64,000 bases of DNA from Saccharofermentanales bacterium (GTDB lineage Bacteria; Bacillota; Clostridia; Saccharofermentanales; DTU023). The notes below the pieces were generated by a model. That model was not told where the DNA came from. It was given only the letters and a program-made list of their open reading frames with translations, and did not search any database. The DNA lies in the NCBI GenBank assembly GCA_050945495.1, contig JBMNTA010000001.1, forward strand, positions 61,075 to 125,074, read 5' to 3'. A program made the position numbers and the translations under genes. Positions 7,087 to 24,032 of the stretch are shown piece by piece (position 1 is the stretch's first letter; every line of letters starts with the position of its first letter).

Positions 7087-7089
7087 ATG

Positions 7090-7311: not shown

Positions 7312-7421
7312 TGTAAAATATGGCGATCCGCAACCAATTTCAGAAAATTCACCCCATCGCTCCCCCCCGTCTGGTATCATCGACGCACATCATCACATCC
7401 CCGTGTCGAAAGGAGTCGACC

Positions 7422-7838: not shown

Positions 7839-7841
7839 AAA

Positions 7842-7867
7842 GGGCCGCCTCCCGAATGAGACGGCCC
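7842..7867. terminator. Hairpin between convergent yjbQ and tdh
   Basis: GGGCCG-N14-CGGCCC, preceded by AAAAA. Confidence 0.45.
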
Positions 7868-7897
7868 CCATCTTGGGGCGACCGAGGCGCCACGCCG

Positions 7898-8848: not shown

Positions 8849-8943
8849 GATTCCCCTCCAAGTTAATCCTTCGGGTGTTTACACCCGGGCGTTCTGCCGT
8901 CATTGTATCACAGGGGTCGGCCGCCGAACGCACGGGCTCCGTC

Positions 8944-8971
8944 GAAAAAACGACCTTCCGAGGAAGGCCGT
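8944..8971 (-). terminator. Intrinsic terminator after the 243-aa hypothetical gene
   Basis: Minus strand ACGGCCUUC-CUCG-GAAGGUCGU followed by UUUUUU. A TGATACAAT extended -10 for tdh follows (attgta at 8902-8907). Confidence 0.75.
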
Positions 8972-8979
8972 CGATCGTG

Positions 8980-9711: not shown

Positions 9712-9715
9712 GGTT

Positions 9716-11010: not shown

Positions 11011-11165
11011 GCCATGAACCTCCTTTGACGGCTTCACTATATCACGGGCGACGTGAAACGTCCTCGATCAAGGTGCTCACAAGCGTGCGCGTCGCTTAAC
11101 AAAAGCTTCACGATGTTTTGGTATGATGACGGCACTTACACGATGTTATTTTTGAGGAGTGTGAC

Positions 11166-13118
11166 ATGAAAGATTTAAAGTACCTCACCTTGTTGGCCAA
11201 CCAATTCCCCACGGCCCGAGCGGCACGCGCGGAGATCATCCGCTTGCGTTCCATCAGCGAATTGCCGAAAGGCACCGAATACTTTTTCAGCGACCTGCAT
11301 GGCGAAGACACGGGATTCATCCATCTTGTCCGGAGCGCCTCCGGCAACATTCGAAAAAAGATTTCGGAATTGTACCGTTACGAACTGACGCAAGACGAGC
11401 AAAACCAATTGGCCAACCTCGTCTACGACCCCAAACGCGTGCTGGCCATCCTGCACGATACGGGGCGCATCACGCCCGACTGGCTCGCGATCACGCTGTA
11501 TCGGCTGGTCAACCTATGCAAATACATCAGCGTCAAGTATTCCTGGCGCGAGATCTCATCGCACATCCCACGGGATTACTACGACGTCATCACGGAACTC
11601 TTGTTCTCGTCGTACGAGGACAGCAAGCGCGACTATCTGAACTCCATCATTCAGTTCATCATCGAGGAAGAGGCGGCGCCCGCCTTCATCGAGGCCTTGT
11701 GCGAAATCGTGTGGACCGTTTCCGTCAATACGCTGCACATCATCGGCGACATCTACGATCGCGGTCCCGGGCCGCACCGCATCATGGAAGAATTGATGGA
11801 ATTCCCGAACGTCGACATCCAATGGGGCAACCACGACATCGTCTGGATGGGCGCGGCGGCCGGCAACCTCGCGTGCATCGCGCACGTCATCCGCATCGGC
11901 ATCAACTACAGTTCGTTTGATTTTCTGGAAGACGGCTACGGCATCAACTTGCGCCCGCTGTCGTCCATGGCGGCATCCGTGTACGCCGACGATCCGTGCG
12001 AGCGCTTCAAGATCCATCATTACGATGCGTCGGAATTCGATTTCATCGACGACCGCCAAGCGGCTCGCATGATGAAGGCGATCACGATCATGCAATTCAA
12101 GTTGGAAGGTCAGCTGATCGAACGCAACCCCGACTGGGGCATGGACGATCGAAACGTGCTCCGCAACATCGATTTCGAGCGCGGCGTCTATCGCTTCAAC
12201 GGCGTGGACCATCCGCTGCTCGACACACGCTTCCCGACCGTCGATCCCGAGGACCCTCTGAAACTCACGGACGACGAAGCTGATGTGCTCCACAACTTAC
12301 ACATGTCGTTCGTTCACAGCGAACCGCTGCACCGTCACATCCGCTTTCTCTACGCCAAGGGCAGCACGTACAAATCAATCAATAAAAATCTCTTGTTCCA
12401 CGGCTGCATTCCCTTGAAAGATGACGGATCGTTTCAATCCATCTCGATCCGCGGACGTCAATATTACGGACGCGAACTCCTGGATCAGTTGAACATCCTC
12501 ATCCACGACGCCTACTTCCAACCGCCCGAAAGCGCGCTGCAGAAGAAAGCCGCCGACTACATGTGGTACCTGTGGTGCGGCCCCGACTCGCCGATGTTCG
12601 GCAAGAGCAAGATGGCGACCTTCGAACGCCTCTTCACCGACGACAGCGAATTGCACCGCGAAATGTACAACCCCTACTACCAATACATCGTGCACGAAGA
12701 CACGTGCAAAATGATTCTGGAAAATTTCGGCATGGATCCCGAGCGTTCGCGCATCATCAACGGGCACGTGCCCGTGAAGATCAAAGACGGCGAACGCCCC
12801 GTCAAAGCGAACGGCAAGCTGTTCGTCATCGACGGCGGGCTGGCGAAGGCGTATCAGCAGAAGACGGGCATCAACGGCTACACCTTATTCTTCAACTCGC
12901 ACCACCTGGCCTTGGCCGAGCACCACGACTTCGAACGCATCGAGAGCGACATGGGCAGTTACACGCCGATGATCAACATCGTCGAAGCGATGCCGGGACG
13001 CCTGCATGTGAAGAACATCGACGCGGGACGCGCGATCGATGAGCGCATCGAAGATCTGCGCGACCTCATCGATGCGTTTCGCTTGGGGAAAATCAAAGAA
13101 CAATCCGAAAGCAATTAA
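11166..13118 (+). CDS. fbp: Fructose-1,6-bisphosphatase class 3
   Basis: 650 aa. MKDLKYLTLLANQFPT...ELPKGTEYFFSDLHGE...HIIGDIYDRGP...QWGNHD. Metallophosphatase motifs typical of YydE-type FBPase. Confidence 0.92.
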   Translation: MKDLKYLTLLANQFPTARAARAEIIRLRSISELPKGTEYFFSDLHGEDTGFIHLVRSASGNIRKKISELYRYELTQDEQNQLANLVYDPKRVLAILHDTGRITPDWLAITLYRLVNLCKYISVKYSWREISSHIPRDYYDVITELLFSSYEDSKRDYLNSIIQFIIEEEAAPAFIEALCEIVWTVSVNTLHIIGDIYDRGPGPHRIMEELMEFPNVDIQWGNHDIVWMGAAAGNLACIAHVIRIGINYSSFDFLEDGYGINLRPLSSMAASVYADDPCERFKIHHYDASEFDFIDDRQAARMMKAITIMQFKLEGQLIERNPDWGMDDRNVLRNIDFERGVYRFNGVDHPLLDTRFPTVDPEDPLKLTDDEADVLHNLHMSFVHSEPLHRHIRFLYAKGSTYKSINKNLLFHGCIPLKDDGSFQSISIRGRQYYGRELLDQLNILIHDAYFQPPESALQKKAADYMWYLWCGPDSPMFGKSKMATFERLFTDDSELHREMYNPYYQYIVHEDTCKMILENFGMDPERSRIINGHVPVKIKDGERPVKANGKLFVIDGGLAKAYQQKTGINGYTLFFNSHHLALAEHHDFERIESDMGSYTPMINIVEAMPGRLHVKNIDAGRAIDERIEDLRDLIDAFRLGKIKEQSESN

Positions 13119-14533
13119 TCGAAGGATCCATCGAGCGACACGACGTTCGCTTGCAGCCGGTCAATCAACGTCAAATCATGCGAGGCGATGACGACCGGCT
13201 TTGTTTTGGCCACGTCGGCCACGAATCGGACGGCCAAGCCGACGCGTTCATCGTCGAGCTCGCGGAACGCCTCATCCAAAAATAAAATGCCGGACGCGGG
13301 CGCCGCGCCGCGAGCGAGCGCCAGGCGGCGCTTCTCCCCGCCCGAAAGCGTACGAGCCGCCTGATCCTTGACGTGCGAGAGATCGAGCGCCGCGAGCAGC
13401 GCATCGGCACGGGCGCCGTCGTGATCGGGCAGCACGAGGCGGATGTTGTCGCGGGCCGTCAGTTGGGGGAAAAGACGATTTTCCTGGAAGACGAGCATCG
13501 GCCGATCGGGCACGCCCTCGATACGGCCGGCATCGGGGGCTTCAAGCCCCATCATGATGCGCATGAGCGTCGTCTTGCCGGATCCCGACGCCCCGATCAA
13601 CATGAGCGGACGATCGAGCGGCAACGTCGCCGAAAAGTCATCGAAGATCACGGCATCGCCGAAGCGCTTGTCGAGGTGACGGACCTCGATGGGCGCCGGG
13701 GACGTTGGGGGGGCGGTCACGGACGTCGACGTCTCGGGCGGGTCGGCCGACGGGTGCGACCAAAATTCGCCGGGCAAGCGCTCTCCGAAACGGACGAGCC
13801 AGGCGCGGCTCAAGCGGACAATGATTTGTTCCGAGACATACGACAGCAAGACCACCGCCAAGGTCCACGCGAGCAGGCGCTCCATGTCAAGGTAGAGTTT
13901 CGCGTCGTACATGTGACGGCCGACCGTCTGCTTCGCAAACGTGATCACCTCGGCGGCGACGCCGGCCTTCCACGCCATTCCGATCGCGACCGACAGCGCC
14001 GCGAGGAACGACTCGCGCACGCTCGGGATCACGATGTAGCGTACGATATTTCGTTTCTTCAAGCGAAAGACGTCGCCCATTTCCAGCATGGATCGGTCGA
14101 CGTTCAGGATGCCGGAGAGTAGCTGACCGTAGACCATCGGAAACACGACCAGACCGCAAATGAACGGGGTGAGCCGCGCATCCGAAAGAAAGAACAGAGC
14201 GATCAGGATGAACGAGACGATCGGCACCGACTTGATGACGAGGACGATCGGGGCAAGCATCCCGCGCAACGGGCGCCACTTCGCCGCAAGCCACGCGAAC
14301 ACGACGGCAAACACGGTCGCACGCAGCACGCTCAACAAGATGCGCCCGGTGGATGTGCCGACCGATTGCCAGCTTTCGGCCACGACCAATCCTCGGGCAA
14401 ACGTTTTCAGAACGGCCCACGGCGACGGCAGGATGAACCCCGTGCCGCCGAAGGAGGCGAGGAGCTGCCACACAATGAGGAGCAGCGCCACGCCTCCGAT
14501 GGCATAGAGCGTATTTTGGCGCTTAGTCGGCAC
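13115..14533 (-). CDS. ABC importer, fused permease (NitT/TauT type) and ATP-binding domain
   Basis: 472 aa. N-terminal half is six-TM permease-like. A P/T/S linker (PPETSTSVTAPPTSPAP) follows. C-terminal half has Walker A GASGSGKTTL, signature LSGGEKRRL, Walker B ILFLDEAF and H-loop ASHD. Confidence 0.85.
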   Translation of the reverse strand: MPTKRQNTLYAIGGVALLLIVWQLLASFGGTGFILPSPWAVLKTFARGLVVAESWQSVGTSTGRILLSVLRATVFAVVFAWLAAKWRPLRGMLAPIVLVIKSVPIVSFILIALFFLSDARLTPFICGLVVFPMVYGQLLSGILNVDRSMLEMGDVFRLKKRNIVRYIVIPSVRESFLAALSVAIGMAWKAGVAAEVITFAKQTVGRHMYDAKLYLDMERLLAWTLAVVLLSYVSEQIIVRLSRAWLVRFGERLPGEFWSHPSADPPETSTSVTAPPTSPAPIEVRHLDKRFGDAVIFDDFSATLPLDRPLMLIGASGSGKTTLMRIMMGLEAPDAGRIEGVPDRPMLVFQENRLFPQLTARDNIRLVLPDHDGARADALLAALDLSHVKDQAARTLSGGEKRRLALARGAAPASGILFLDEAFRELDDERVGLAVRFVADVAKTKPVVIASHDLTLIDRLQANVVSLDGSFD

Positions 14534-15614
14534 CGTAGTAGAACTCGGGTCCCGGCAGCTGACCGCCGATCGACTGCGGGTTGGCGTCGAACATGAGGCG
14601 GAGGAAGCCCTCCAACATGGTCTTCATCGCTTGGCCGTCGGCAAAGCGAATGCTGCAGTAAGGGATCGCCTCTTTGGCAATGGCCGCTTTGAAAATGCCC
14701 AAGGCTTCAATGAGCTCGGCCGCTTCTTCCGGCTGGTCGTTCGCAAAGGCGATGGACGCTTCGTAACGCTCCAAGAAGGCATCCATCATCTCGGGATATG
14801 CCTCGACGAGCGATTTCTGCGCCACGAGCACGCCCATGACAAAGCCCGCGTCTTCCACGAGCGATTCCCACACCGTGTTCAGGTCGATCGCGACGCGCAG
14901 GTCTTCGACCTTCTTTTGCGTCACGGTCACAAACGGTTGCGGCAACAACGCGATGGCGCCGTCGTGCGCGACGAGGCTCTGCACCACGGCGCTGTGTTCG
15001 GCTTCCCAGATGATCTCCACGTCATGATCGGGATCGATGCCGCTCTTTTCCAAGAGCAAATGGAACGCATATTCGGGCACGGCCCCTTGGCCGGACGCGT
15101 AGATCGTCTTACCCTTCAGATCTTCGAGCGAATGAATCGTATCGCCGCGCTCGACGATGTTGAGAATGCCGAGCGTGTTGATCGCGACGGTCACCACTTG
15201 GCCGTCCGTCTTGTTGTACAGGGTCGATGCCAAGTTGGCGGGCACGGCCGCGAGGTCGCACTCCCCTTTGACAATCTTCGGCACGAGCTCATTCGGCGAA
15301 CCGAACAGCTCGAAATCCACACGGATGTCCGCGTCGTCTTGCTGTGCCTTCGTGATCAATTCGGCAAGCCCCATGCTGGTCGGGCCCTTCAAACCCGCAA
15401 GCTTGATCGGTCGATCCGGCACCTTGAGCTCGGTCGGCGGCTCGGTCGGGGGCACGGTCGTTTCCGGCGGCACCGTGACGTCCGGTGCCTCGGTCACGTC
15501 GGAGGCATCCGTCTTGACGGGATTCGTGGGGGTCGGGGCGGGCGCCGGTGCGCATGCCACCGTCAACATGGCGGCGACGAGCAGCACGGCCATCGTTGCA
15601 AATAACTTTTTCAT
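14523..15614 (-). CDS. ABC transporter substrate-binding protein (NMT1/THI5-like, NitT/TauT family), probable lipoprotein
   Basis: 363 aa from ATG 15614 (MKKLFATMAVLLVAAMLTVAC...). AAAGGAG RBS. The tracked 504-aa ORF has a 141-aa basic N-terminal extension across the intergenic region, which I rejected. Confidence 0.8.
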   Translation of the reverse strand: MKKLFATMAVLLVAAMLTVACAPAPAPTPTNPVKTDASDVTEAPDVTVPPETTVPPTEPPTELKVPDRPIKLAGLKGPTSMGLAELITKAQQDDADIRVDFELFGSPNELVPKIVKGECDLAAVPANLASTLYNKTDGQVVTVAINTLGILNIVERGDTIHSLEDLKGKTIYASGQGAVPEYAFHLLLEKSGIDPDHDVEIIWEAEHSAVVQSLVAHDGAIALLPQPFVTVTQKKVEDLRVAIDLNTVWESLVEDAGFVMGVLVAQKSLVEAYPEMMDAFLERYEASIAFANDQPEEAAELIEALGIFKAAIAKEAIPYCSIRFADGQAMKTMLEGFLRLMFDANPQSIGGQLPGPEFYYGAD

Positions 15615-15878
15615 CGTTGACTCCTTTGTATGTCGAGCGAAAGCGCCATCGCTTCCGTTCCTTGTTTCATCGGTGTTTGAGGACGGTTTGCCCTGCCAAA
15701 CACCCGCATGACCAAGATACCCTTGCACATGCGTCTTGGCAAACATTTCCATCCCGCGGTGACGCTGGTCACGCATGCCGTAATTCCCGCGATTGGCCTC
15801 TGAAAAACATGGATCGCCCCCGCCAAAAATGATAGGATGGGGGCGCGCCGACGTACGGGGCGCGGGGAGGTTATTCGA

Positions 15879-16868
15879 ATGAATCGAACAGAGATGCATC
15901 GCCTGATCGGAGTGGCGATCGTCATCGTATTGGTGGCCTTGGCCATCGTGATTCCGATGCGACGTCAACACCGCAACATCGGCACGCCGGATGTGGGCGT
16001 GCCCACCCAACCGTCGAGTCGGGCGGCCGTGCATCACGGCGCCGACGCTCCGCCGCCCTTAACCCCGCCGATCCTCACCACGGCGATCTTCACCACGACA
16101 ACGACCCGCCCGTCGCCAACGACGACCGTCGCACCGACCACGTCGGAACCGACGACCCCGTCGCCCACAACGACCACGACGACCACGACCACGACCACGA
16201 CATCCGTCACCGCAAGCAAGGTCCGTGCGGAAACGTATTCCACCCGCCCGATCCAATCCAAACGCGTGGCCATCACGTTCGATGACGGCCCATCGAAGCA
16301 TACGCCGCGTCTCTTGGACGCCCTCAAACAGTACAACGCCAAGGCGACCTTTTTCGTCCAAGGATGTTTCGTGAAAGAGCGCGGCGCCATTGTGGCGCGG
16401 ATGGCCCAAGAAGGCCATCAAGTCGGCAACCACGCCTACTCCCACCCGAACCTCTGCAAAGTCAGCGCAGAAGAATTGACCTATCAGCTGGAGCACACCA
16501 ACGCCCTGATCGAAGCACAGACGGGCAAAAAGGTGACCGTCATGCGGCCGCCGGGCGGCGCATGCAATCAGGCGGTCCTCGCCGAAGCGAAACGCCTGGG
16601 CATGGCGGTCGTGATCTGGGACTTGGATTCCAACGATTGGCGAAAAAACAACCGCAATCCCGATTATGTCTGCAATTACATTTTGAAACATGCGGGCAAC
16701 GATCAGGTGATGTTGCTCCACGATCTCCACAAGACGACGGTGGACGGCTTCCTCCGCGCGCTGCCGATCCTGGCGGAGCAAGGGTTTGAATTCGTCACGC
16801 TGGACGAACTCTATGACTTGCCGGCCGGCGCGGTGTACCCGGCATGGTTTGTGCGGTACATTAAATAA
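15879..16868 (+). CDS. Membrane-anchored polysaccharide deacetylase (NodB/CE4) with Pro/Thr-rich stalk
   Basis: 329 aa from ATG 15879 (MNRTEMHRLIGVAIVIVLVALAIV). GGGGAGG RBS. NodB motifs are ITFDDGP, GHQVGNHAYSHP and MRPPGG. Confidence 0.88.
   Translation: MNRTEMHRLIGVAIVIVLVALAIVIPMRRQHRNIGTPDVGVPTQPSSRAAVHHGADAPPPLTPPILTTAIFTTTTTRPSPTTTVAPTTSEPTTPSPTTTTTTTTTTTTSVTASKVRAETYSTRPIQSKRVAITFDDGPSKHTPRLLDALKQYNAKATFFVQGCFVKERGAIVARMAQEGHQVGNHAYSHPNLCKVSAEELTYQLEHTNALIEAQTGKKVTVMRPPGGACNQAVLAEAKRLGMAVVIWDLDSNDWRKNNRNPDYVCNYILKHAGNDQVMLLHDLHKTTVDGFLRALPILAEQGFEFVTLDELYDLPAGAVYPAWFVRYIK
16167..16202 (+). repeat. Run of 12 consecutive Thr codons (ACN)12 within a roughly 150-bp Pro/Thr-rich low-complexity segment
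   Basis: acaacgaccacgacgaccacgaccacgaccacgaca, in frame with the deacetylase. The broader PT-rich segment spans about 16060-16215. Confidence 0.9.
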
Positions 16869-17009
16869 AACACATACGGTACATACCGCACGTTTTAAAA
16901 ATAGAGTATACTTCCTACATCGGTGGCGGTCCCGATGGAATACGGCGCCCCCATGAGCGCACATGTGTCGTCGGCGCTTTGACCGAAAGCGTATAAGGAG
17001 GATCATCCC

Positions 17010-18056
17010 ATGCATATCAGCCGAGCCCTGCCCTTCGTTCGCGACTGCTGGCGAGCATCCAGAAAAGAGACCAAACGCTCGGATCGTTCTCGTCTAAACA
17101 TTTTTTTTGACATGCTGTCCTGCAAACTGAAGTACCGCGCGATCATCACCGACTACATCCTCTTTAATTTTTTGGAATTGACGGACAAAGCGATTCGCGA
17201 CGAATACATCTTCGCGCCGGATTGGGAGCACATCGTCCATAATTTAAATCCGCCGAACGACACCCCCGATTTTCTGTCGGATAAAGTGGTGGCCTACAAG
17301 CGCTACAAAGATTACTTCCATCGCGACGTGTTGATCGTCGAAGAAGCTTCCGACGACGACATGCGGACGTTTTTCAAAAACAATCCCGTGTTTTTCGGCA
17401 AACGCTCGTGGAGCTATTCGGGGTACGACGTCGTCAAGATGCGCGTGGAAGATCAGCCCGTCGCGGCCCTGATCCGGCGCGTGCGCAATGAGAAGTTCGA
17501 TCTTTTGGAAGCGGAAATCGTGCAACACCCGAAGATGGACACCATCTGCCCCACGGCCTGTCACTCGATTCGTGTCACGACGTTCAAGCGCGGCGACAAG
17601 ATGCTCATCATGCCGGTCACGGCTCGCGTCGCCCTGTTTGACGACATCGATCGCATCACGACCGGACAGTCCGTCGGCTCGATTTGCGTGGACGAAAACG
17701 GATATCTGGTGTCGGACGCCATCATCAACGACACCGTCTTTGACTACGATGAACCGACGCATTTCGCGGTCCATCCGTTGACCGGCGTGCCGATCAGCGA
17801 CGGATCCTTTCAACTGCCGGATTATCAGGCCATGATGGACATGGTGACGGAACTCGTCGAAAACGAAGACGAGTACGGCCACATCGGCTGGGACATCGCG
17901 CTCGCCGAATCCGGCCCGTGCGTGATTGAAGCCAATCCCTGGGGGATATACGAATTCTACGAGTACTACGACCATGTAAAGCGTCTGCCGAAGCGCATTC
18001 GTCCCATGTTGGAAGACTTTTTCGAATGCAAATTGGAAGACTTGCCCATCCGATGA
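17010..18056 (+). CDS. ATP-grasp family protein, sugar-transfer-associated/TupA-like type (paralog A)
   Basis: 348 aa. AAGGAGG RBS. The C-terminal GHIGWDIALAESGPCVIEANPWG resembles the ATP-grasp C-domain. The N-terminal LPFVRDCWRA...YILFNF and the overall layout match what I recall of the ATPgrasp_ST/TupA families. Confidence 0.65.
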   Translation: MHISRALPFVRDCWRASRKETKRSDRSRLNIFFDMLSCKLKYRAIITDYILFNFLELTDKAIRDEYIFAPDWEHIVHNLNPPNDTPDFLSDKVVAYKRYKDYFHRDVLIVEEASDDDMRTFFKNNPVFFGKRSWSYSGYDVVKMRVEDQPVAALIRRVRNEKFDLLEAEIVQHPKMDTICPTACHSIRVTTFKRGDKMLIMPVTARVALFDDIDRITTGQSVGSICVDENGYLVSDAIINDTVFDYDEPTHFAVHPLTGVPISDGSFQLPDYQAMMDMVTELVENEDEYGHIGWDIALAESGPCVIEANPWGIYEFYEYYDHVKRLPKRIRPMLEDFFECKLEDLPIR

Positions 18057-18075
18057 TCCGCGACATGCCCAAACC

Positions 18076-18114
18076 AAAGGGGTCGGTTCGCAGGCATGGA
18101 ACCGCCCCCTTTTT
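18076..18114. terminator. Bidirectional terminator between the convergent ATP-grasp paralogs
   Basis: AAA-GGGGTCGGTTC-gcaggcatg-GAACCGCCCC-CTTTTT. Confidence 0.8.
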
Positions 18115-18134
18115 CATGCCTTGATCGCGGTCGA

Positions 18135-19187
18135 TTACGTGTTGGGCAACTCGGAAATCGATGATCCCATGAAGGCCTCAATGGTCGGACGGATGCCGTG
18201 CATCGTGCGTTTCACGTGATCGTAATATTGGTAAAAATCGTAGTGCCCCCACGGGTTCGCTTCGATGACACAGGGGCCCTTGTCCGTGATGGCAATGTCC
18301 CACCCGAGATGGCCGTGATCTTGTTCCTGCTCCGTGATCTCCACCATCATGTCGAGCATCTCTTGATAGAACGGTACGACAAAACGACCGTCATCGATGG
18401 GATGGCCCGTCATCGGATGAACATCGTATCGGGTGGCAAAATCGGGATCAAAGATCGAGTCGTTGACCACCGCCGGCGAAATGAATCGCCCCTCCTCATC
18501 GATGGCGACGCAAGCGGAGGACTGCCCCATCTTGATGATGTCGACATCATCGAACAGCGCAATGCGCACCGACACGGGCAGGATCATGATCTCGCCCCGA
18601 TGCTTCAAAATGGTGAGCCGAAACGACGCCACGGCATTCGGGCAGACGCGGTCGAGCGCGGGATGCTGCACGATCGGCTCCTCGAGCATGTCGTACTTCG
18701 AAGCGCGCAATTGCTCCGGCAGCGCATCCATGTGGGTGCGATCGATCGTGACGCGATCGACGTCGCGGCCGGCATAGCTTTTGGCCCGCTTGCCGTAGAA
18801 GGTCGGATGCTTGTCCGCAAACGCTTGAATCTCCCGGTCCGTCGCGTCCTCCAAGATCAGCACGTCACGGAAAAAATACGGCGCGAATCGACGATAGCCG
18901 TCGACCTTGTCGGCCAAAAACTCGGGCGCGTCGTTCGGCGGATTCAAGTTGTGCACCAGCCGCACCCAATCGGGCGCGAAGAGGTATTCTTCGCGCATCG
19001 CCGGGTCTTGGAACGCCATGAAATTGAACAACAGATAGTCGCTCAACGCCGTCTTGTACTTGAATTTGCAGTACAGGATGTCGGTGTACAGATCGAGGAA
19101 CGATCGGTCCGTCAAGATGGCCTGTTTTTTGGCGGCGCGCCAAGAGGATCGCACAAACGGGATCGCGTTTTTAATCTCCATCGACAC
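18135..19187 (-). CDS. ATP-grasp family protein, sugar-transfer-associated/TupA-like type (paralog B)
   Basis: 350 aa. Colinear with paralog A along the whole length: IPFVRSSWRA / LPFVRDCWRA; LFAPDW..LVHNLNPPNDAPEFLADKV / IFAPDW..IVHNLNPPNDTPDFLSDKV; GHLGWDIAITDKGPCVIEANPWG / GHIGWDIALAESGPCVIEANPWG. Confidence 0.65.
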   Translation of the reverse strand: MSMEIKNAIPFVRSSWRAAKKQAILTDRSFLDLYTDILYCKFKYKTALSDYLLFNFMAFQDPAMREEYLFAPDWVRLVHNLNPPNDAPEFLADKVDGYRRFAPYFFRDVLILEDATDREIQAFADKHPTFYGKRAKSYAGRDVDRVTIDRTHMDALPEQLRASKYDMLEEPIVQHPALDRVCPNAVASFRLTILKHRGEIMILPVSVRIALFDDVDIIKMGQSSACVAIDEEGRFISPAVVNDSIFDPDFATRYDVHPMTGHPIDDGRFVVPFYQEMLDMMVEITEQEQDHGHLGWDIAITDKGPCVIEANPWGHYDFYQYYDHVKRTMHGIRPTIEAFMGSSISELPNT

Positions 19188-19201: not shown

Positions 19202-19897
19202 TCAGTGCACGGGATCGACGAAGACGACACGCTCCATCACCGGCGGCGTCTCGGGGAAGTCGTTTGCGCCCGTCGGCAGCGCGGCGATGCGATCAACTTC
19301 GTCGATGCCGTGAATGACGCGACCGAAGGCGGCGTACTTGCCGTCCAGGTGCGGCGCATCCTTGTGGCAGATAAAGAATTGCGAACTCGCCGAATCGGGA
19401 TCGTTCGTACGCGCCATGGAGATGACGCCGCGTAGATGCGTGAGCTGATTGTCGACGCCGTTTGCGCGGAACTCGCCCTTGATCGTCTGGGGCGCGCCGC
19501 CCATGCCGGTGCCTTCCGGATCGCCGCCTTGGATCATGAATCCCTCAATGATGCGGTGGAAAATCAAACCGTCGTAAAAGTGTTGATCGACCAACATGCG
19601 GAAATTGTCGACGGTGATCGGCGCATTGTGGGGATCGAGGGCGATGATGATCGGGTTGCCGCTGTCCATGATGATCGCGACGGTCAAGGTCATGTCATCG
19701 GTCACAACGTATTGATCGGCGAGTACTTCGCGGTCGCCGTGGTTTGTGGTGGGTTCGGGGGTGGATGTCATGGGGGGTTCTCCTTCTTCGCTAAAATGGG
19801 GGATGTCTTCTTGGGGGGCGCATGCACACGTCAGTGCGATCGCCGCGACGCACAAGATGAGCAGGATTCGGATCCGGGTTCGATGGGATGGCATCAT
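19202..19897 (-). CDS. Secreted or lipid-anchored cyclophilin-type peptidyl-prolyl isomerase
   Basis: 231 aa. N-terminal hydrophobic signal ending ...IALTCAC. Cyclophilin core FHRIIEGFMIQGGDP...GGAP...ISMARTNDPDSASSQFFI. Confidence 0.88.
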   Translation of the reverse strand: MMPSHRTRIRILLILCVAAIALTCACAPQEDIPHFSEEGEPPMTSTPEPTTNHGDREVLADQYVVTDDMTLTVAIIMDSGNPIIIALDPHNAPITVDNFRMLVDQHFYDGLIFHRIIEGFMIQGGDPEGTGMGGAPQTIKGEFRANGVDNQLTHLRGVISMARTNDPDSASSQFFICHKDAPHLDGKYAAFGRVIHGIDEVDRIAALPTGANDFPETPPVMERVVFVDPVH

Positions 19898-19905
19898 GGT
19901 TCTCC

Positions 19906-20535
19906 TTACTTCATTGATTCTTGTTCATCCGTGAAGGGCTCGATCAGCTCCGCCACGGCATATCGCAACACGATAAATTCGCCGGCATGTGCGTCGACTT
20001 CGACGTCATGGGCCACGTCATAGGCTCGAAGCACGTTGACGTCGGTGCGGCCGGGACGATCGACGATCTTGCAAAACGGCAAAAGATCTTTCGGATGATC
20101 CAGGCCTTTCACGGTGTACCGACCGGGCACAACGTCGACGCCGACCCAGAACGTTCCGTGTTCATAGGGCGGTTCAAGCGTCGGCATCGCTTCTTTGTCC
20201 GCTTCCGACCACAGGCGCGCGTCATTGAATTTCAACAACTCACCGTCCTCGACGTCGACCCAGTTGCGCGTCGAGAACGAGCGTCCCATGATCAGGTTTT
20301 CGCCGGCACCGATCGGTTCCGACAAGTGAAACAAGCCCTTGCCGTCGGTCGCTTCCAAACAGTATCGACCGGGCGGCAAAACGTCTTTCAGGTCCATGGT
20401 CTCCGCGCCGTCGAGGATGCGGTACGTTTGATCAAACGCCATCGGCGTCGGGTGATAAATGCACCCGACCGTCCAGGGCAAAAGGAGCATCACCATCCAG
20501 GCAATGGCCGTCATGCGTTTGCAAAAATCGGACAT
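19906..20535 (-). CDS. Hypothetical lipoprotein
   Basis: 209 aa. Signal sequence MTAIAWMVMLLLPWTVGC. Two internal PGRY-containing segments (LPPGRYCLEA, VVPGRYTVKG). No family recognised. Confidence 0.65.
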   Translation of the reverse strand: MSDFCKRMTAIAWMVMLLLPWTVGCIYHPTPMAFDQTYRILDGAETMDLKDVLPPGRYCLEATDGKGLFHLSEPIGAGENLIMGRSFSTRNWVDVEDGELLKFNDARLWSEADKEAMPTLEPPYEHGTFWVGVDVVPGRYTVKGLDHPKDLLPFCKIVDRPGRTDVNVLRAYDVAHDVEVDAHAGEFIVLRYAVAELIEPFTDEQESMK

Positions 20536-20591: not shown

Positions 20592-21308
20592 CTAACGGTA
20601 TGTGTCGCCGAAAACCTTGCGATCGGCCCATCGGATGAGCGGGATCGACAGCGGAATGGCCGCCAATCCATAGAGCCATCCGCCGGGAATGTCCAAGAAA
20701 ACGTGCTGTTTCGTCAAGACCGTGGTGGCCATGATGAAGAGGTAATGAAGCGTCAACAAAACCTTAAGCCACGTCTTGCCGTCCTTCCACTGCCAGACGA
20801 AGAAAATGGTGATGGTACAGAGGGTGACATGAATCGACGGAAAACCGCAGTAATGGTTGTCCGTCCGGTACACCCACGCCAACAGCTTCGAAAAGATATC
20901 GTCGGCGCCGAATACGGTCGCGTAAGGACGTGGAATTTTGGTCTGAAAGAACGGAAACGTGAGATCCGCCATGAGCTGGCCGACCAGCATAGTTATGACG
21001 TAACGACGACATAAAATCCTGTCAACAAAAAAATACGTGATCGCCAAGATAATGAGGATCGGCCCCCACGTGTTGTACGGGATGACCGTCCACGGCACGA
21101 GCGGGATCTTGTCGTCCAGGGGGATCGAGAGGTCGTGCACGGTGCCGATCGGGCGATTTAAGAGCTCCATCACCCACATGCTCGCGGCAAATCCCACGAT
21201 CATCACGACGTCACGCCAAAAATAGCGTACATAAGCCCAAAGCGCCGCGCGATCTTTTCGACTCGACGGTGGGGCGGGTTTCACCGCATGGACGGCGGGA
21301 TCGGCCAT
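20592..21308 (-). CDS. PAP2-superfamily membrane phosphatase/transferase-like protein
   Basis: 238 aa from ATG 21308 (MADPAVHAV...), 1 nt after the upstream stop. Multi-TM. FPSIH and a KQHVFLD block resemble the PAP2 C2/C3 motifs. Confidence 0.65.
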   Translation of the reverse strand: MADPAVHAVKPAPPSSRKDRAALWAYVRYFWRDVVMIVGFAASMWVMELLNRPIGTVHDLSIPLDDKIPLVPWTVIPYNTWGPILIILAITYFFVDRILCRRYVITMLVGQLMADLTFPFFQTKIPRPYATVFGADDIFSKLLAWVYRTDNHYCGFPSIHVTLCTITIFFVWQWKDGKTWLKVLLTLHYLFIMATTVLTKQHVFLDIPGGWLYGLAAIPLSIPLIRWADRKVFGDTYR

Positions 21309-21309
21309 C

Positions 21310-22107
21310 TTACGCGTTCCCTTCCCCGGCGCGTTGCTCGGCCTCACGATCGGCCACGCGATTGAGCACGCGCCCAAAACCGTACTGAATCAAGATGAGG
21401 ACTTCGTATCCCAGAAGCATGATGATGTAATAGAGCCCCGGCCACATCGACAACACGACTTCGTGAAGGCTCGGCGGCGGCAACGTCACGTAGCCGTAAT
21501 TGTAGAGCGCCCCTCGGTACGGAATGAACGAACCGTTCCCCCATGCATTGATGCCGATGAGGAAGACGTTATAGACCAGCGTGACGACCAGCGTCTTCAC
21601 CAAATTCTTGCGATCGAATCGATAATCCAAGACGAAAATGGTGTAAATGATGACCCAGCCGAGTAAAATGTGCACGATGAAAAACTGGAAATTCGTGTAG
21701 TGCGGAAAATCGAATCGATACAAATCCATGAAACCCATCGCAAACACCGAACCCAAAAGGCCCCAGTAAATCCAGATTGATCGCAGGGCTTTCACGCCGA
21801 ACAGGAGGTCAAGGATTAAGAACGGCACCGAGATGCGGCAGTGATAGAGGGGCAAGCTGACAGGCAGATTAAAATACCCCGATCCGAATTGCCAGGCGTA
21901 CAAAACAATCTGGTCCAACAAAAGGATGGCGGCCATGATCCGCGCCGGCCGTTCGGGATGGGCGCGCGCCTTCCATCGCTCGCGGTTCGCGACGATGGTG
22001 AACATGCCACCCAGCCAAAGCGTGAGCAAGGCAATGCGCAGCCACGGGGAAATGACGACCGGTTCGGGGCGTTCGACACCACTGAAAAAAGACAATAAAA
22101 AAATCAA
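21310..22107 (-). CDS. Polytopic membrane protein (TIGR02206/YwaF-like)
   Basis: Start uncertain. I favour TTG 22107 (IFLLSFFSGV...) with a GAGGAAA RBS; the tracked start is GTG 22164. About 7 TM segments. The family call comes from the overall hydrophobic pattern only. Confidence 0.55.
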   Translation of the reverse strand: MIFLLSFFSGVERPEPVVISPWLRIALLTLWLGGMFTIVANRERWKARAHPERPARIMAAILLLDQIVLYAWQFGSGYFNLPVSLPLYHCRISVPFLILDLLFGVKALRSIWIYWGLLGSVFAMGFMDLYRFDFPHYTNFQFFIVHILLGWVIIYTIFVLDYRFDRKNLVKTLVVTLVYNVFLIGINAWGNGSFIPYRGALYNYGYVTLPPPSLHEVVLSMWPGLYYIIMLLGYEVLILIQYGFGRVLNRVADREAEQRAGEGNA

Positions 22108-22173
22108 TGTTTTCCTCGCAGAACGACTCGAGCGATCGAGCGTACTTCTGACAGTATACGCCACCCGCCGCGG

Positions 22174-23673
22174 TTATTCATCCCCGTCGACCCGACTAAA
22201 CGACCGTGTGACGGCTCGGCGCCATCCCGCGTATCGGGCGCGACGTTGCGACGCGGACATGGCGGGCGTAAACACGCGATCGACTTGCCATGTCGCGCGG
22301 AGGGCGTCGATATCTTCCCACACCCCCACGGCAAGGCCGGCCAGGAATGCGGCGCCCAACGCGGTGGTCTCGACCGACGCCGGACGTGACACCGGCACAT
22401 CGGCGATGTCGGCTTGAAATTGCATCAGGAAATCGTTGTTGGCCGCGCCACCGTCGGCTTTGAGGGACGTCACATCGATCGACGCATCCTTTTCCATGGC
22501 GTCCAACACATCGAGGGTCTGGTAGGCGATCGATTCGAGGGCGGCACGTACGATGTGTTCGCGGTTAACCCCCCGCGTCAAGCCCACGATGACGCCGCGA
22601 GCGTACGGATCCCAATACGGTGCGCCCAACCCCGTAAACGCCGGCACGACGTAGCAACCGCAGGTGTCGTCGACCGCCGCGGCCATCGCCTCCGAGGCTT
22701 CGGCCGACGGAATCAGACGCAATTCGTCTCGAAGCCATTGCACGACGGCACCCGCCACGAAGACGGAGCCTTCCAGCGCATACGTCACCCGGCCGCCGAG
22801 GTCCCACGCCACGGTCGTCACGAGGCCGTGCTCGCTTTTCACCGGCACGTCGCCCGTGTTCATCAATAGGAAGCAGCCCGTCCCGTACGTGTTCTTGACA
22901 TCGCCGGGATCGTAACAGGCTTCGCCGAACAGCGCCGCCTGCTGATCGCCGGCGGCGCCCGCAATGACGATGGGCTCACCGAAGAAGGCCGGATCGGTCG
23001 TGCCGAATCGGCCGCTCGACGGTCGCACCTCCGGGAGCATCGCGCGCGGGATGTCGAGGATGCGCAGCAAATCGTCGTCCCATGTCATCGTATGGAGATT
23101 GAAGAGCATCGTGCGCGAAGCATTCGAGACGTCGGTCGCGTGTACGGCGCCGCCCGTCAATTTCCAGACGAGCCACGTCTCGACCGTGCCGAACAGGAGG
23201 TCGCCGCGTTCGGCGCGCGCACGGGCGCCGTCGACGTGGTCCAAAAGCCACGCGATTTTGGTTCCGCTGAAGTAGGCGTCGACGACCAATCCCGTCTTGT
23301 CGCGGATCGTCTCGGCCAGCCCCCGAGCCTTCAGGCGGTCGCACATCTCGGCCGTGCGGCGGCACTGCCAGACGATGGCGTTGTGAATCGGCCGACCGGT
23401 TATCTTGTCCCATACGATCGTGGTCTCGCGTTGGTTCGTGATCCCGATCGCTCGGATGTCGGACGCTTTGGCGCCGGCCTTTTGCATCGCCTCGACCGCC
23501 ACGCCGAGCATGGTCGACCAGATGTCGTTGGCGTCGTGCTCCACCCAGCCGGGTTTCGGATAGATTTGCCTTAACGGGCGCTGCGCGACGGCGCGAATCG
23601 TCCCCGTGTGATCAAACATGATGGCACGGTTGCTGGTCGTTCCGGCGTCGAGCGCCATGACAAAGGTTGGCAT
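22174..23673 (-). CDS. glpK: Glycerol kinase
   Basis: 499 aa. [34 protein letters not shown] and [12 protein letters not shown] are FGGY kinase/GlpK hallmarks. Confidence 0.95.
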
Positions 23674-23684: not shown

Positions 23685-24032
23685 TTAATCGATGTCGCGC
23701 GTGGCGATCACATGGGCGGGGTGCCCCAGCACATGTTCAAGGATGACGTCGCCCCGATGCACGGGCGCCGCGACGGTCACCTCATCCAGCGCGGCCATGA
23801 CGGCCATGACGTCCGCCTTCGGGATCGGACGATCGGTCTTGACGGGACAGCGTCGATGACGGCCGCCCGTGACACGCACGGTCGATGTCACCGTCCGCGT
23901 CGGGTTCGAGGCCTCGCTCTTGCCGTAGGCCGCCCCGCGCAGGCAGCGATTGCCCGTCACGTCGTAATCATGCTCCGGATCGACCGTCAAGTGACAGCCT
24001 TGCGGACACACGGTGCAAATCATCTCAATCAT
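23685..24032 (-). CDS. DUF1667 domain protein (small Cys-rich subunit of the anaerobic glycerol-3-P dehydrogenase-like cluster)
   Basis: 115 aa from ATG 24032 ([17 protein letters not shown]...). GGGAGG lies 7 nt upstream. Overlaps the upstream stop by 8 nt. Confidence 0.75.

What the first reader, a model, noticed from the sequence alone, without database searches (positions are those of the whole stretch)
15879..19187. Mirror-image pair of paralogous ATP-grasp genes within an envelope-modification locus
- **The pair.** Two full-length paralogs (348 and 350 aa, colinear, roughly 45% identical by eye) face each other across a 78-bp spacer that contains only a bidirectional terminator.
- **Family.** They resemble the poorly characterised sugar-transfer-associated/TupA-like ATP-grasp ligases, which are predicted amidoligases acting on glycopolymers.
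- **Plus-strand context.** Paralog A follows a membrane-anchored NodB deacetylase carrying a Pro/Thr stalk.
- **Minus-strand context.** Paralog B is the last gene of a string encoding a TIGR02206-like membrane protein, a PAP2 protein, a lipoprotein and an exported cyclophilin.
- **Inference.** An inverted duplication followed by divergence, within a locus that decorates a cell-wall polymer with amino acids or amines. The substrates are unknown.
Basis: partly seen in the sequence, partly recalled or inferred. Interest (0 to 1): 0.55.

Follow-up and report, generated by a model that had tools for sequence, protein, structure and literature searches.

The report
Mirror-image pair of ATP-grasp ligase genes
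Two tail-to-tail copies of an uncharacterised ATP-dependent ligase gene are real, but only one copy is shared with related bacteria; the other is a fast-evolving yet selectively maintained extra copy found only in this uncultured Clostridia species, so this is an ordinary though tidy case of gene duplication in a cell-envelope gene neighbourhood.

Summary
A (17010..18056 +) and B (18135..19181 −) each encode 348 aa. They are 50% identical with no gap, both pass Pfam PF14397 (ATPgrasp_ST), and a 78-bp spacer between them folds into a strong two-way terminator hairpin.

- **Comparison with relatives.** Sixteen related uncultured Saccharofermentanales lineages all have cyclophilin→B, usually convergent on a NodB deacetylase. 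Only this species has A.
- **Origin of A.** A derives from the B type, with 50–53% identity to every B orthologue and no orthologue of its own. The split is old (dS saturated).
- **Evolution of A.** A has changed about 2.6 times faster than B. Its changes cluster at residues 181–240.
- **Selection on A.** Two haplotypes differ at 15 sites, all synonymous, so A is under strong purifying selection.
- **A second case.** An independent tandem duplication in another lineage shows the same acceleration.

The substrate is unknown. The locus has no glycosyltransferase or sugar-nucleotide genes. The nearest stand-alone relatives pair with alanine racemase, MurT/GatD, a MurJ-type flippase or a YkuD transpeptidase. 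I therefore favour a peptidoglycan-precursor amidoligase over a glycopolymer one, with low confidence.

Verdict: new member of a known kind, modest interest.

The parts
15879..16868 (+). Membrane-anchored NodB-type polysaccharide/peptidoglycan deacetylase with a Pro/Thr-rich stalk. The longest ORF starts at 15837.
   Evidence: PF01522 at 132.7 bits. Sub-threshold NCBIfam hits to PdaB, PgdA and PdaA. The TM segment and the T-run are visible in the translation. It is convergent partner of B in 13 of 16 related lineages.
16869..17009 (+). NodB-A intergenic region with the ribosome-binding site AAGGAGG (16995-17001), 8 nt before the ATG of A. It has no convincing terminator.
   Evidence: Sequence. 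The hairpin after NodB is not better than shuffles, z -0.3 to -1.1. The region has no similarity to the region upstream of B.
17010..18056 (+). Paralog A: a species-specific, fast-evolving but selectively maintained PF14397 ATP-grasp ligase gene (348 aa).
   Evidence: no orthologue; 50-53% to all B-type proteins; 19 unique changes; 15 synonymous, 0 non-synonymous variants; a single protein variant on 18 contigs; AF2 pLDDT 73.6, same fold layout as B.
18057..18134 (.). Spacer with a bidirectional intrinsic-terminator hairpin. Stems are 18076-18089 and 18099-18112, loop 18090-18098. T-runs lie on both strands. The axis is at 18094, 1.5 nt from the midpoint between the two stop codons.
   Evidence: (z -3.3 and -3.5). 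Single-copy relatives have only 4-19 nt between the B and NodB stops, with no hairpin.
18135..19181 (-). Paralog B: the ancestral, conserved PF14397 ATP-grasp ligase gene. It is 348 aa from the ATG at 19181; an alternative GTG start lies at 19187. It is the last gene of the minus-strand string.
   Evidence: orthologues at 57-73%. (cyclophilin→B in 16 of 16 lineages). (evolves at background rate: 71% against GlpK 68% to L010). (AF2 pLDDT 78.5). (Foldseek hits to ATP-grasp enzymes).
17109..17296 (.). Left arm of the surviving DNA-level inverted repeat. The right arm is 18895-19082. Length 188 nt, 70% complementary.
19202..19897 (-). Exported (lipoprotein-type signal) cyclophilin PPIase, immediately upstream of B with a gap of 14-20 nt.
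   Evidence: PF00160 at 157 bits. It is adjacent to B in all 16 lineages.
19906..20535 (-). 209-aa lipoprotein-like ORF with no family assignment.
   Evidence: No Pfam, NCBIfam or PADLOC hit. Weakly conserved (27-40%) in 11 lineages.
20592..21308 (-). PAP2_3 membrane phosphatase/phosphotransferase-like protein.
   Evidence: PF14378 at 41.3 bits. Gene calls.
21310..22107 (-). TMEM164/TIGR02206-type integral membrane acyltransferase, 1 nt from the PAP2 start.
   Evidence: PF14808 at 99.3 bits and TIGR02206 at 85.8 bits, cutoff 75.

Best explanation
A and B are two cytoplasmic ATP-grasp carboxylate-amine ligases of Pfam family PF14397.

**Shown**
- B is the ancestral gene. In every sampled relative it is the last gene of a transcription unit that always contains an exported cyclophilin directly upstream, and it usually converges on a NodB deacetylase gene.
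- A exists only in this species. It sits exactly between NodB and B, co-oriented with NodB.
- A descends from the B type, has diverged about 2.6 times faster than B, keeps all family-invariant residues, and is under strong purifying selection.

**Inferred**
- A arose by an in-situ inverted duplication of B in the window lineage. The palindromic junction of that duplication became the two-way terminator.
- The copy came under NodB-side transcription, because no convincing terminator separates NodB from A.
- A then changed substrate specificity. Its changes cluster in residues ~181-240, including the flexible loop 213-221, and in residues 321-340.

**Inferred, lower confidence (about 0.35)**
- Both enzymes use ATP to form an acyl-phosphate on a carboxyl group of a cell-envelope precursor and ligate an amino acid or amine to it.
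- The precursor is most likely the peptidoglycan stem peptide (UDP-MurNAc-peptide or lipid II). A adds or accepts a different residue than B.
For: **Family and fold**
- PF14397 scores above the gathering score for both copies.
- Foldseek on the AF2 model returns only ATP-grasp enzymes (PurK, Ddl, LysX, RimK, an ATP-grasp peptide ligase), probability 1.0, E about 1e-6.
- The Lys-loop (FYGK131), the LEExIxQH hinge, GWD295 and IE307-x-N309 are invariant in both copies.

**B is ancestral and A is unique**
- Searches show cyclophilin→B in 16 of 16 lineages and A in 0 of 16.
- A has no orthologue among 5.8e9 proteins or in any fetched locus.

**A is of B type**
- A is 50-53% identical to the B clade, 42-45% to the P0012/P0016 clade and at most 31% to anything else.
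- The NJ bootstrap places A next to B_win.
- GlpK shows the window species is the deepest branch, so no gene losses are needed.

**Geometry**
- The genes are tail-to-tail and equal in length with no indels. A 188-nt, 70% inverted repeat survives. The hairpin axis lies 1.5 nt from the midpoint.

**Asymmetry**
- A has 19 unique changes at invariant columns against 3 for B.
- B_win evolves at background rate.
- A's divergence is regionally clustered.

**Purifying selection on A**
- A has 15 synonymous and 0 non-synonymous variant sites between haplotypes.
- Its 90% cluster holds one protein variant on 18 contigs.

**A replicate**
- L013 has a tandem B1/B2 pair. The two copies are 77% identical to each other but about 60% to the sister species' B, although GlpK is 91% between those species.

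**Peptidoglycan lean**
Operon partners of the nearest stand-alone relatives, verified with Pfam:
- alanine racemase, with overlapping stop and start
- MurT with GatD
- a MurJ/Polysacc_synt flippase
- a YkuD L,D-transpeptidase with PG_binding_4
- NodB

.
Against: - No biochemical data exist for any PF14397 member in the searchable literature. No solved structure or curated NCBIfam model covers the family.
- The window locus contains no Mur, racemase or flippase gene.
- The PLP-enzyme→ATP-grasp→flippase module also occurs in a proteobacterial polysaccharide/uronic-acid context. The flippase and PLP partners therefore do not discriminate peptidoglycan from other lipid-linked glycopolymers.
- The neighbour analysis is a small, redundant sample (26 lineages) without a formal enrichment test.
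- The invariant link to an extracellular cyclophilin is unexplained by this model.
- Placement of A as sister to B_win is unresolved. Bootstrap support is 21-32%, against 53-68% for one node deeper. Informative quartet sites split 4:4:1.
- Spacer palindromy outside the terminator stem is not significant, P about 0.11.
Confidence: 0.5

Rival explanations
1. A and B are amidoligases that decorate a non-peptidoglycan cell-wall glycopolymer (teichuronic-acid-like or capsular) by amidating sugar-acid carboxylates with amino acids or amines, as TupA-like enzymes do.
For: - The Pfam family is named for association with sugar-transfer genes.
- A distant member on a Shinella plasmid lies between a type III PLP enzyme and a nucleotide-sugar dehydrogenase, next to an oligosaccharide flippase.
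- The sister TupA-like enzyme Cj1438C amidates GlcA in a capsule (PMC11800379).
- Several Bacillota relatives adjoin Polysacc_synt-type flippases.
Against: - None of the 16 Saccharofermentanales loci has a glycosyltransferase, sugar-nucleotide enzyme, polymerase or flippase within ±6-10 kb.
- There is no PF14305 hit.
- The MurT/GatD, YkuD and alanine-racemase partners of the nearest relatives are peptidoglycan-specific.
Confidence: 0.2
2. A and B are protein- or peptide-modifying ligases of the RimK/CfmP type. They add amino acids to, or otherwise modify, a protein substrate, possibly one linked to the co-transcribed secreted cyclophilin or to lipoprotein maturation.
For: - The cyclophilin→B gene pair is invariant in 16 of 16 lineages with a 12-25 nt gap.
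- Relatives give partial, sub-threshold similarity to TIGR02291 'alpha-L-glutamate ligase-like'.
- The TupA-like protein CfmP is required for a fimbrial protein modification independent of surface polysaccharides (PMC13419641).
Against: - The cyclophilin is exported, whereas an ATP-grasp enzyme must work in the cytoplasm.
- No candidate substrate peptide gene is conserved next to B.
- The TIGR02291 scores of the relatives scanned (17-94 bits) are far below the cutoff of 314, and A and B themselves give no hit.
Confidence: 0.12
3. A was not made by local duplication. It was acquired horizontally from an unsampled relative, or is an old paralogue lost elsewhere, and happened to insert between NodB and B.
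For: - The bootstrap majority (53-68%) puts A one node below B_win rather than as its sister.
- A is slightly closer to foreign B orthologues (53%) than to its neighbour B (50%).
- A's GC content is somewhat lower, 53.9% against 56.9% for B and 59.3% for the window.
- A's upstream region has no similarity to B's.
Against: - No donor-like sequence exists in 5.8e9 proteins, 185k species genomes or the metagenome scan.
- The position is exactly tail-to-tail, with the terminator axis 1.5 nt from the midpoint.
- There are no mobile-element traces or flanking direct repeats.
- Long-branch attraction would bias A towards the base of the tree.
- The window species is the deepest branch by GlpK, so sister placement needs no losses.
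Confidence: 0.15
4. A is a redundant or decaying duplicate with no distinct function.
For: A evolves about 2.6 times faster than B. It carries radical changes at nearly invariant positions (E168A, G196D, S222V, E274A, G329R, G339E).
Against: - The 348-codon ORF is intact and has a strong ribosome-binding site.
- A retains every column that is invariant across the 14-sequence B-type alignment (A included) and across the 16-sequence family-wide alignment.
- Polymorphism is 15 synonymous and 0 non-synonymous sites. One protein variant occurs on 18 contigs, while B has 3-4 variants.
- The predicted fold is confident.
Confidence: 0.03

Closest known systems
Pfam PF14397 ATPgrasp_ST ('sugar-transfer associated ATP-grasp'; defined computationally by Iyer et al. 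2009, cited from memory because PMC3268129 is not held)
   Same: Both proteins pass the gathering score. The length and architecture (about 335-350 aa, an N-terminal helical region plus the ATP-grasp core) match thousands of stand-alone members.
   Different: - The B clade is one isolated 50%-identity cluster: 671 bits, with the next relative at 242 bits.
- The family loop motif 'VDNxSSGG' is replaced by 'D(I/V)xxI(K/T)xGQS'.
- The locus lacks sugar-transfer genes.
- No member has been characterised biochemically in the literature I could search.
TupA-like ATP-grasp amidoligases (PF14305), e.g. the C. jejuni Cj1438 C-terminal domain
   Same: The predicted chemistry is the same: ATP-dependent amide formation on a carboxylate of an envelope component (PMC11800379).
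   Different: There is no PF14305 match at E<=0.01. A and B are stand-alone proteins, not fused to or adjacent to a glycosyltransferase.
D-aspartate ligase Aslfm of Enterococcus faecium (an ATP-grasp enzyme that adds the side-chain residue to UDP-MurNAc-pentapeptide and is encoded next to a racemase; recalled from Bellais et al. 2006, not checked here)
   Same: It is a working analogy for the favoured mechanism. It is an ATP-grasp ligase tailoring the peptidoglycan precursor. The racemase + ligase pairing resembles the alanine racemase→ATPgrasp_ST pairs seen in relatives.
   Different: No sequence comparison was possible, and no NCBIfam model hit A or B. Membership is neither tested nor claimed.
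RimK / TIGR02291 'alpha-L-glutamate ligase-like' proteins
   Same: The stand-alone relatives scanned give partial hits over the C-terminal catalytic core (17-38 bits); the two-module fusion P0020 scores 94 bits. RimK is among the Foldseek matches.
   Different: The scores are far below the cutoff of 314 bits, and A and B give no hit. The retropepsin and transglutaminase partners typical of TIGR02291 (from memory) were not seen.
Tandem or fused ATPgrasp_ST pairs (P0020, P0021, P0027, P0043; L013 B1-B2; L037 triple)
   Same: Two or three modules of this family working side by side is a recurrent arrangement.
   Different: Here the two modules are separate genes on opposite strands in different transcription units. 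I saw no other convergent pair.

Membership tests
ATP-grasp superfamily | ATP-grasp fold (central and C-terminal domains that clasp ATP). | tested here: met
   AF2 models have pLDDT 78.5 (B) and 73.6 (A). Foldseek against PDB gives 198 hits at E<=1e-3. All 50 listed matches are ATP-grasp-fold proteins (mostly ligases/carboxylases; also synapsin I), probability 1.0, though TM scores are only 0.30-0.44.
ATP-grasp superfamily | Conserved ATP-binding and Mg2+-binding residues: a Lys in a beta-strand followed by a Gly loop, a hinge Glu, and an Asp/Glu-x-Asn metal-ligand set. | tested here: met
   K131 and G138, E167 (LEE), Q172 and H173, R188, D295 (GWD), E307 and N309 (IExNP) are invariant in the clade. 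All of these except E167 are also invariant family-wide (E167's family-wide equivalence was not established), and all are present in both A and B. A alone has E168A. Assignment of roles is by motif analogy, not by residue-level structural superposition.
ATP-grasp superfamily | ATP-dependent carboxylate-amine (or thiol) ligase activity via an acyl-phosphate. | not testable with these tools
   This needs an enzyme assay.
Pfam PF14397 ATPgrasp_ST | Score at or above the gathering threshold of 31.4 bits. | tested here: met
   A scores 69.8 bits and B scores 78.3 bits.
Pfam PF14397 ATPgrasp_ST | Genomic association with sugar-transfer or polysaccharide-synthesis genes, which is the basis of the family's name. 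| tested here: not met
   No such genes are present in the window locus or in any of the 16 related loci. The association is seen in a distant Shinella member.
TupA-like ATP-grasp (PF14305) | Significant match to the PF14305 profile. | tested here: not met
   At E<=0.01 only PF14397 was reported for A and B.
TIGR02291 alpha-L-glutamate ligase-like | Score at or above the curated cutoff of 314 bits. | tested here: not met
   A and B give no hit at E<=0.01. The stand-alone relatives scanned reach 17-38 bits and the fusion protein P0020 94 bits, all far below the cutoff.
Bidirectional intrinsic terminator | A GC-rich stem-loop followed by a U-run on both transcripts. | tested here: met
   The stem is 13 bp plus one mismatch with a 9-nt loop. 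It is followed by UUUUU on the + strand and UUUGGUUUGG on the − strand, z -3.3 and -3.5. Actual termination was not tested.
Inverted (tail-to-tail) gene duplication | Homologous arms in inverted orientation sharing one symmetry axis, with single-copy relatives at the same site. | tested here: met
   The arms are 1,044 nt each with no indel and 59.7% nt identity. Inverted repeat I1 is 188 nt at 70%. The hairpin axis at 18094 lies against a midpoint of 18095.5. All 16 relatives lack A; most carry a single B-type copy, and L013 has an independent tandem pair. Sister relationship of A and B_win in the tree is inconclusive.

The most novel reading that the evidence does not exclude
The stand-alone PF14397 ATP-grasp proteins of Bacillota, including A, B and the 'C-type' gene beside NodB in related genomes, are a so-far unrecognised class of peptidoglycan-precursor ligases. 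They would add side-chain, cross-bridge or carboxyl-capping residues, analogous to D-aspartate ligase. On this reading, the variable copy number (1-3) in the cyclophilin-NodB slot reflects lineage-specific diversification of cell-wall peptide chemistry. Each duplication there is followed by accelerated, then constrained, evolution.
Probability: 0.25. Interest if true: 0.6.

Novelty: new member of a known kind. Interest (0 to 1): 0.35.

Why it matters
- **For annotation.** The label 'sugar-transfer associated' should not be read as glycopolymer decoration for this clade. Its conserved partners are an exported cyclophilin and a NodB deacetylase. Its nearest relatives sit with alanine racemase, MurT/GatD, a MurJ-type flippase and an L,D-transpeptidase.
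- **For enzymology.** If the peptidoglycan reading is right, PF14397 would supply candidate enzymes for unexplained stem-peptide and cross-bridge modifications in Clostridia and Erysipelotrichaceae.
- **For evolution.** The locus gives two independent natural replicates, one inverted (this window) and one tandem (L013). In both, duplication of the same ligase gene is followed by strongly accelerated protein divergence; purifying selection afterwards is shown only for copy A of this window. It is a compact system for studying neofunctionalisation.
- **Limits.** The organisms are uncultured and the substrate is unknown. The pair itself is an ordinary outcome of gene duplication.

Tried and rejected
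1. **TupA-like membership.** Rejected: no PF14305 hit.
2. **Named function from curated resources.** Nothing found. There is no NCBIfam equivalog for A, B or their relatives. No PDB sequence relative was found with a single sequence or with a profile. No paper mentions PF14397/ATPgrasp_ST or ATP-grasp together with YkuD. Iyer et al. 2009 is not held.
3. **dN/dS between A and B.** Computed but uninformative, because synonymous sites are saturated: pS 0.70, dS about 2, third-position identity 40.5%.
4. **Gene conversion from B as the source of A's polymorphism.** Rejected. The alternative alleles match B at 6 of 15 sites, against 5 of 15 for the window alleles.
5. **A as orthologue of the extra copies elsewhere.** Rejected. 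L013's second copy is a recent duplicate of its own B (77%). L013's third copy and L007's second copy form a distant C-type, about 23% identical to A and B.
6. **Resolving A's exact branch point.** The NJ bootstrap and quartet site counts are inconclusive.
7. **Terminator between NodB and A.** Not supported: z is -0.3 to -1.1. The consensus promoter hit at 16979-17006 overlaps the ribosome-binding site and is implausible. Promoter and terminator counts equal shuffle expectation.
8. **Homology of the two 3' flanks beyond the terminator stem.** Only six consecutive pairs (CCGCGA/TCGCGG) match. Overall 8 of 19 pairs match, P about 0.11, which is not significant.
9. **Similarity of A's upstream region to B's upstream region (the cyclophilin 3' end).** None found.
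10. **Defence-system reading.** No PADLOC hits.
11. **RNA elements in the locus.** None found. The only Rfam hit in the window is a lysine riboswitch 10 kb away.

Full report
**1. Observation**

The two ORFs exist as described. A is 17010..18056 (+), 348 aa. B is 18135..19187 (−), 350 aa from a GTG start. Gene callers on identical metagenomic contigs start B at the ATG at 19181, which also gives 348 aa.

BLASTP between them gives 50% identity and 72% positives over 346 residues with no gap, E 1e-141. At the DNA level the codon-aligned arms are 59.7% identical. A 188-nt inverted repeat at 70% complementarity is still detectable, 17109-17296 against 18895-19082.

The 78-bp spacer contains a GC-rich hairpin with stems 18076-18089 and 18099-18112 and a 9-nt loop. 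T-runs follow it on both strands. It folds at -33.4 and -36.3 kcal/mol on the two strands, z = -3.3 and -3.5 against dinucleotide shuffles. 'Bidirectional terminator' is therefore a fair structural description.

- NodB/PF01522 with a TM segment and a Pro/Thr stalk
- a TIGR02206/TMEM164-type membrane protein
- PAP2_3
- a family-less lipoprotein-like ORF
- a cyclophilin with an export signal

**2. Family**

Both proteins exceed the gathering score of Pfam PF14397 (ATPgrasp_ST), at 69.8 and 78.3 bits against 31.4. They match nothing else at E<=0.01, so they are not TupA-like (PF14305).

AlphaFold2 models reach pLDDT 78.5 for B and 73.6 for A, with the same order of secondary-structure elements. 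Both have a low-confidence loop, at residues 214-221 in B and 213-220 in A. Foldseek against the PDB returns only ATP-grasp enzymes (PurK, Ddl/VanA, LysX, RimK, an ATP-grasp peptide ligase), with probability 1.0 but modest TM scores of 0.30-0.44.

The motifs that carry ATP and Mg2+ binding in ATP-grasp enzymes are present in both copies. They are invariant in the clade, and all except E167 are also invariant in a family-wide alignment:
- K131 with G138
- the LEE hinge
- R188
- GWD295
- IE307-x-N309

No solved structure is a sequence relative, either by single sequence or by profile. No curated NCBIfam model names A, B or their relatives. Only sub-threshold partial similarity to TIGR02291 appears, and only for relatives. 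No paper in the searchable library mentions this Pfam family.

**3. Where it comes from and how common it is**

The window is from an uncultured Saccharofermentanales bacterium (Clostridia). The NCBI MAG proteins are MGI6156922.1 and MGI6156923.1. The pair recurs on at least 21 contigs of the same species from several anaerobic-digester or similar samples.

An exhaustive HMMER search of 1.84 billion representatives shows a large family, with 4,604 representatives at E<=1e-3. Within it the B clade is a single isolated 50%-identity cluster, at 671 bits against 242 bits for the next relative.

**4. Comparative anatomy**

I mapped the locus in 16 related species-level lineages, using contigs encoding homologues and GTDB species representatives.

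- **Cyclophilin→B.** Adjacent on the same strand in all 16.
- **NodB.** Convergent downstream in 13. In the single-copy genomes the two stop codons are only 4-19 nt apart.
- **TMEM164-PAP2-lipoprotein.** Precedes the cyclophilin in 11 lineages and is absent in 5.
- **C-type gene.** A distant third type of ATPgrasp_ST gene, about 23% identical to B, sits next to NodB in five lineages.
- **L013.** Carries a tandem B1-B2 pair plus C.
- **A.** No lineage other than the window species has it.

The convergent pair is therefore not conserved. The conserved unit is cyclophilin→B, usually together with NodB.

**5. Origin of A**

A has no orthologue in 5.8 billion proteins or in any locus I fetched. It is 50-53% identical to every B-clade protein, 42-45% to the P0012/P0016 subclade and at most 31% to any other family member. 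It is thus a derivative of the B type.

A bootstrapped NJ tree places A on the backbone next to B_win. It is sister to B_win in 21-32% of replicates, and one node deeper in 53-68%. Informative quartet sites split 4:4:1. The exact node is unresolved, and long-branch attraction would bias A downwards.

GlpK identities show that the window species is the deepest branch of the sampled group, at 67-72% against at least 72% among all others. A duplication within the window lineage therefore needs no gene losses.

The geometry fits an in-situ inverted duplication. The genes are tail-to-tail with equal arm lengths and no indel. The hairpin axis (18094) lies 1.5 nt from the midpoint between the stop codons (18095.5). 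Complementarity of the spacer outside the terminator stem is not significant, P about 0.11. The 141 bp upstream of A shows no similarity to the region upstream of B.

I found no mobile-element traces or flanking direct repeats. I rate in-situ duplication at about 0.7 and acquisition from an unsampled relative at about 0.15.

The split is old. Third-position identity is 40.5%, pS is 0.70 and dS is about 2, which is saturated. dN is 0.42.

**6. Fate of the copies**

B_win has evolved at the background rate. It is 71% identical to the L010 orthologue, against 68% for GlpK and 69% for the cyclophilin.

A is the fast copy. At columns invariant in 13 other B-type proteins, A alone differs at 19 and B alone at 3. 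Poisson distances give about 0.50 against 0.19 if the two are sisters; this figure is derived from the identities.

A's changes are concentrated in residues ~181-240 and 321-340. The first stretch comprises beta-strands and the flexible loop, where 'DIIKMGQSS' has become 'DRITTGQSV'. These segments are 81-85% conserved in the rest of the clade. The ATP-binding and metal-binding motifs are kept, apart from E168A.

A is nevertheless clearly functional:
- It has an AAGGAGG ribosome-binding site 8 nt before its ATG.
- Two haplotypes in the population differ at 15 sites in A, all synonymous third-position changes.
- Its 90%-identity cluster contains a single full-length protein variant seen on 18 contigs, whereas B has 3-4 variants.
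- The variants are not copied from B (6 of 15 against 5 of 15 matches).

No convincing terminator separates NodB from A. A is therefore probably transcribed from the NodB side, while B ends the cyclophilin operon. The copies have different regulatory contexts.

There is a replicate. L013 and L007 are close relatives, with GlpK 91% and adenine deaminase 95% identical. Yet L013's duplicated B1 and B2 are only about 60% identical to L007's single B, and 77% identical to each other. Duplication in this gene family is thus repeatedly followed by rapid protein divergence.

**7. What the enzymes do**

The chemistry follows from established knowledge of the ATP-grasp superfamily: ATP-dependent activation of a carboxylate as an acyl-phosphate, followed by attack by an amine. 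The substrate is not shown by any data.

The window locus and its 16 relatives contain no glycosyltransferase, sugar-nucleotide, polymerase or flippase genes. This argues against a dedicated glycopolymer-decoration locus.

To get at function I sampled the nearest stand-alone relatives: proteins of about 335 aa from Bacillota that align over their full length, reduced to 26 lineages at 70% identity. Their same-strand, often overlapping partners, verified with Pfam, are:
- alanine racemase directly upstream (2 lineages)
- a Polysacc_synt/MurJ-type flippase directly downstream (3 lineages), and another flippase upstream (1 lineage)
- MurT (3 lineages) with GatD (2 lineages)
- a YkuD L,D-transpeptidase with PG_binding_4, in an Erysipelotrichaceae MAG and related gut-metagenome contigs

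. One relative lies near an S66 LD-carboxypeptidase and one beside EzrA.

These partners are peptidoglycan-precursor or remodelling enzymes. I therefore favour a peptidoglycan stem-peptide or cross-bridge ligase, in the manner of the ATP-grasp D-aspartate ligase. That analogy is recalled from memory and is not a tested membership.

Three caveats apply:
- The sample is small and partly redundant.
- The flippase and PLP-enzyme partners are not specific to peptidoglycan. A distant Shinella plasmid member has a type III PLP enzyme overlapping the ATP-grasp gene, beside an oligosaccharide flippase and a nucleotide-sugar dehydrogenase, which is the classical uronic-acid amidation context.
- The invariant link of B to an exported cyclophilin remains unexplained.

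Close fusion relatives carry two ATPgrasp_ST modules in one polypeptide. One is fused to a PGA_cap domain. Paired modules are thus a family habit, which fits two ligases acting in sequence or as a heteromer. This is an inference.

**8. Comparison with the known, and novelty**

The pair belongs to a known but biochemically uncharacterised Pfam family. It fails membership of the TupA-like and TIGR02291 families. The inverted arrangement is unique to one species.

Its 'envelope-polymer decoration locus' is only partly supported, and conservation of the pair is refuted.

I classify this as a new member of a known kind, of modest interest (0.35). The most novel reading is that this clade represents missing peptidoglycan-tailoring ligases whose copy number tracks cell-wall diversification. 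I give that about 0.25 probability.

Noticed in passing
window 17096-17978 (gene A), compared with 7010-17000: Same-species contigs fall into two haplotypes. They differ at 14-15 synonymous sites inside A (about 1.4%), while the 10 kb to the left differs at 0-2 sites. Similar patches lie at about 21500-22500, 24000-26000 and 27000-27500. This looks like a recombination mosaic, and one tract coincides almost exactly with gene A.
   Followed up: partly
window 7070-7236 (− strand): A lysine riboswitch (RF00168, 52.1 bits against a gathering score of 30). It is the only Rfam hit in the 64-kb window. The regulated gene was not examined.
   Followed up: no
window, 19500-19999 bin, inside the cyclophilin gene (19202-19897): A 6-nt indel polymorphism between haplotypes (L001-L005 against the window). 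It lies within the cyclophilin gene; the exact position within the bin was not determined.
   Followed up: no
L013 8001-11338 (GCA_040364315.1): Three ATPgrasp_ST genes lie in tandem between the cyclophilin and NodB. B1 and B2 are 77% identical to each other but about 60% to the single B of L007, although GlpK is 91% identical between the two genomes. This is an independent duplication with accelerated divergence.
   Followed up: partly
L007 11496-12497; L013 10334-11338; L023, L024, L025, L032-L036: A distant 'C-type' ATPgrasp_ST gene, about 23% identical to B, with faint YheCD similarity. It always lies convergent on NodB. It is present in the deeper lineages and absent from the window species and the single-copy group.
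   Followed up: partly
L029 7001-9327; L030 7001-9325; L110 704-3030: ATPgrasp_ST overlaps (by 4 nt in L029 and L110) or directly abuts (24-nt gap in L030) a YkuD L,D-transpeptidase gene (PG_binding_4 detected in L029 only), followed by YhhN. It occurs in an Erysipelotrichaceae MAG (L110) and in related gut-metagenome contigs. I found no literature on it.
   Followed up: partly
L061/L065/L066/L068 and others; L097/L099/L059/L040: Two recurrent modules in gut Bacillota. One is alanine racemase→ATPgrasp_ST→Polysacc_synt/MurJ-type flippase, with overlapping genes. The other is ATPgrasp_ST→MurT→GatD.
   Followed up: partly
P0020, P0021, P0027, P0043, P0047: Large relatives carry two ATPgrasp_ST modules in one polypeptide. 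P0047 (1,564 aa) also has BspA-type leucine-rich repeats and a PGA_cap (CapA-like) domain. P0032 has a methyltransferase domain between its modules.
   Followed up: no
L062 623-1636 and L043 4920-5936: Two family members from different loci share an identical C-terminal ~160 residues but have different N-terminal halves. This is either recombination between paralogues or a chimeric assembly.
   Followed up: no
window 13115-15611 (− strand): An ABC transporter whose permease (BPD_transp_1) and ATPase (ABC_tran) are fused in one 472-aa protein. It is preceded by an NMT1/phosphonate-binding-type lipoprotein. The pair is syntenic with the NodB side of the locus in most relatives.
   Followed up: no
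L007 12723-15988; L024 9408-12247: Three consecutive NodB-family deacetylase genes replace the single one of the window. In the O group a secreted CAP-domain protein with a Thr-rich linker sits between B and the C-type gene.
   Followed up: no
window 20592-22107 (− strand): The TMEM164/TIGR02206-type acyltransferase and PAP2_3 genes are separated by 1 nt and lie directly downstream of the glycerol kinase/glycerol-3-phosphate dehydrogenase genes. This suggests a membrane-lipid remodelling pair rather than a wall-polymer function. The pair is absent from five related loci that still keep cyclophilin→B.
   Followed up: no
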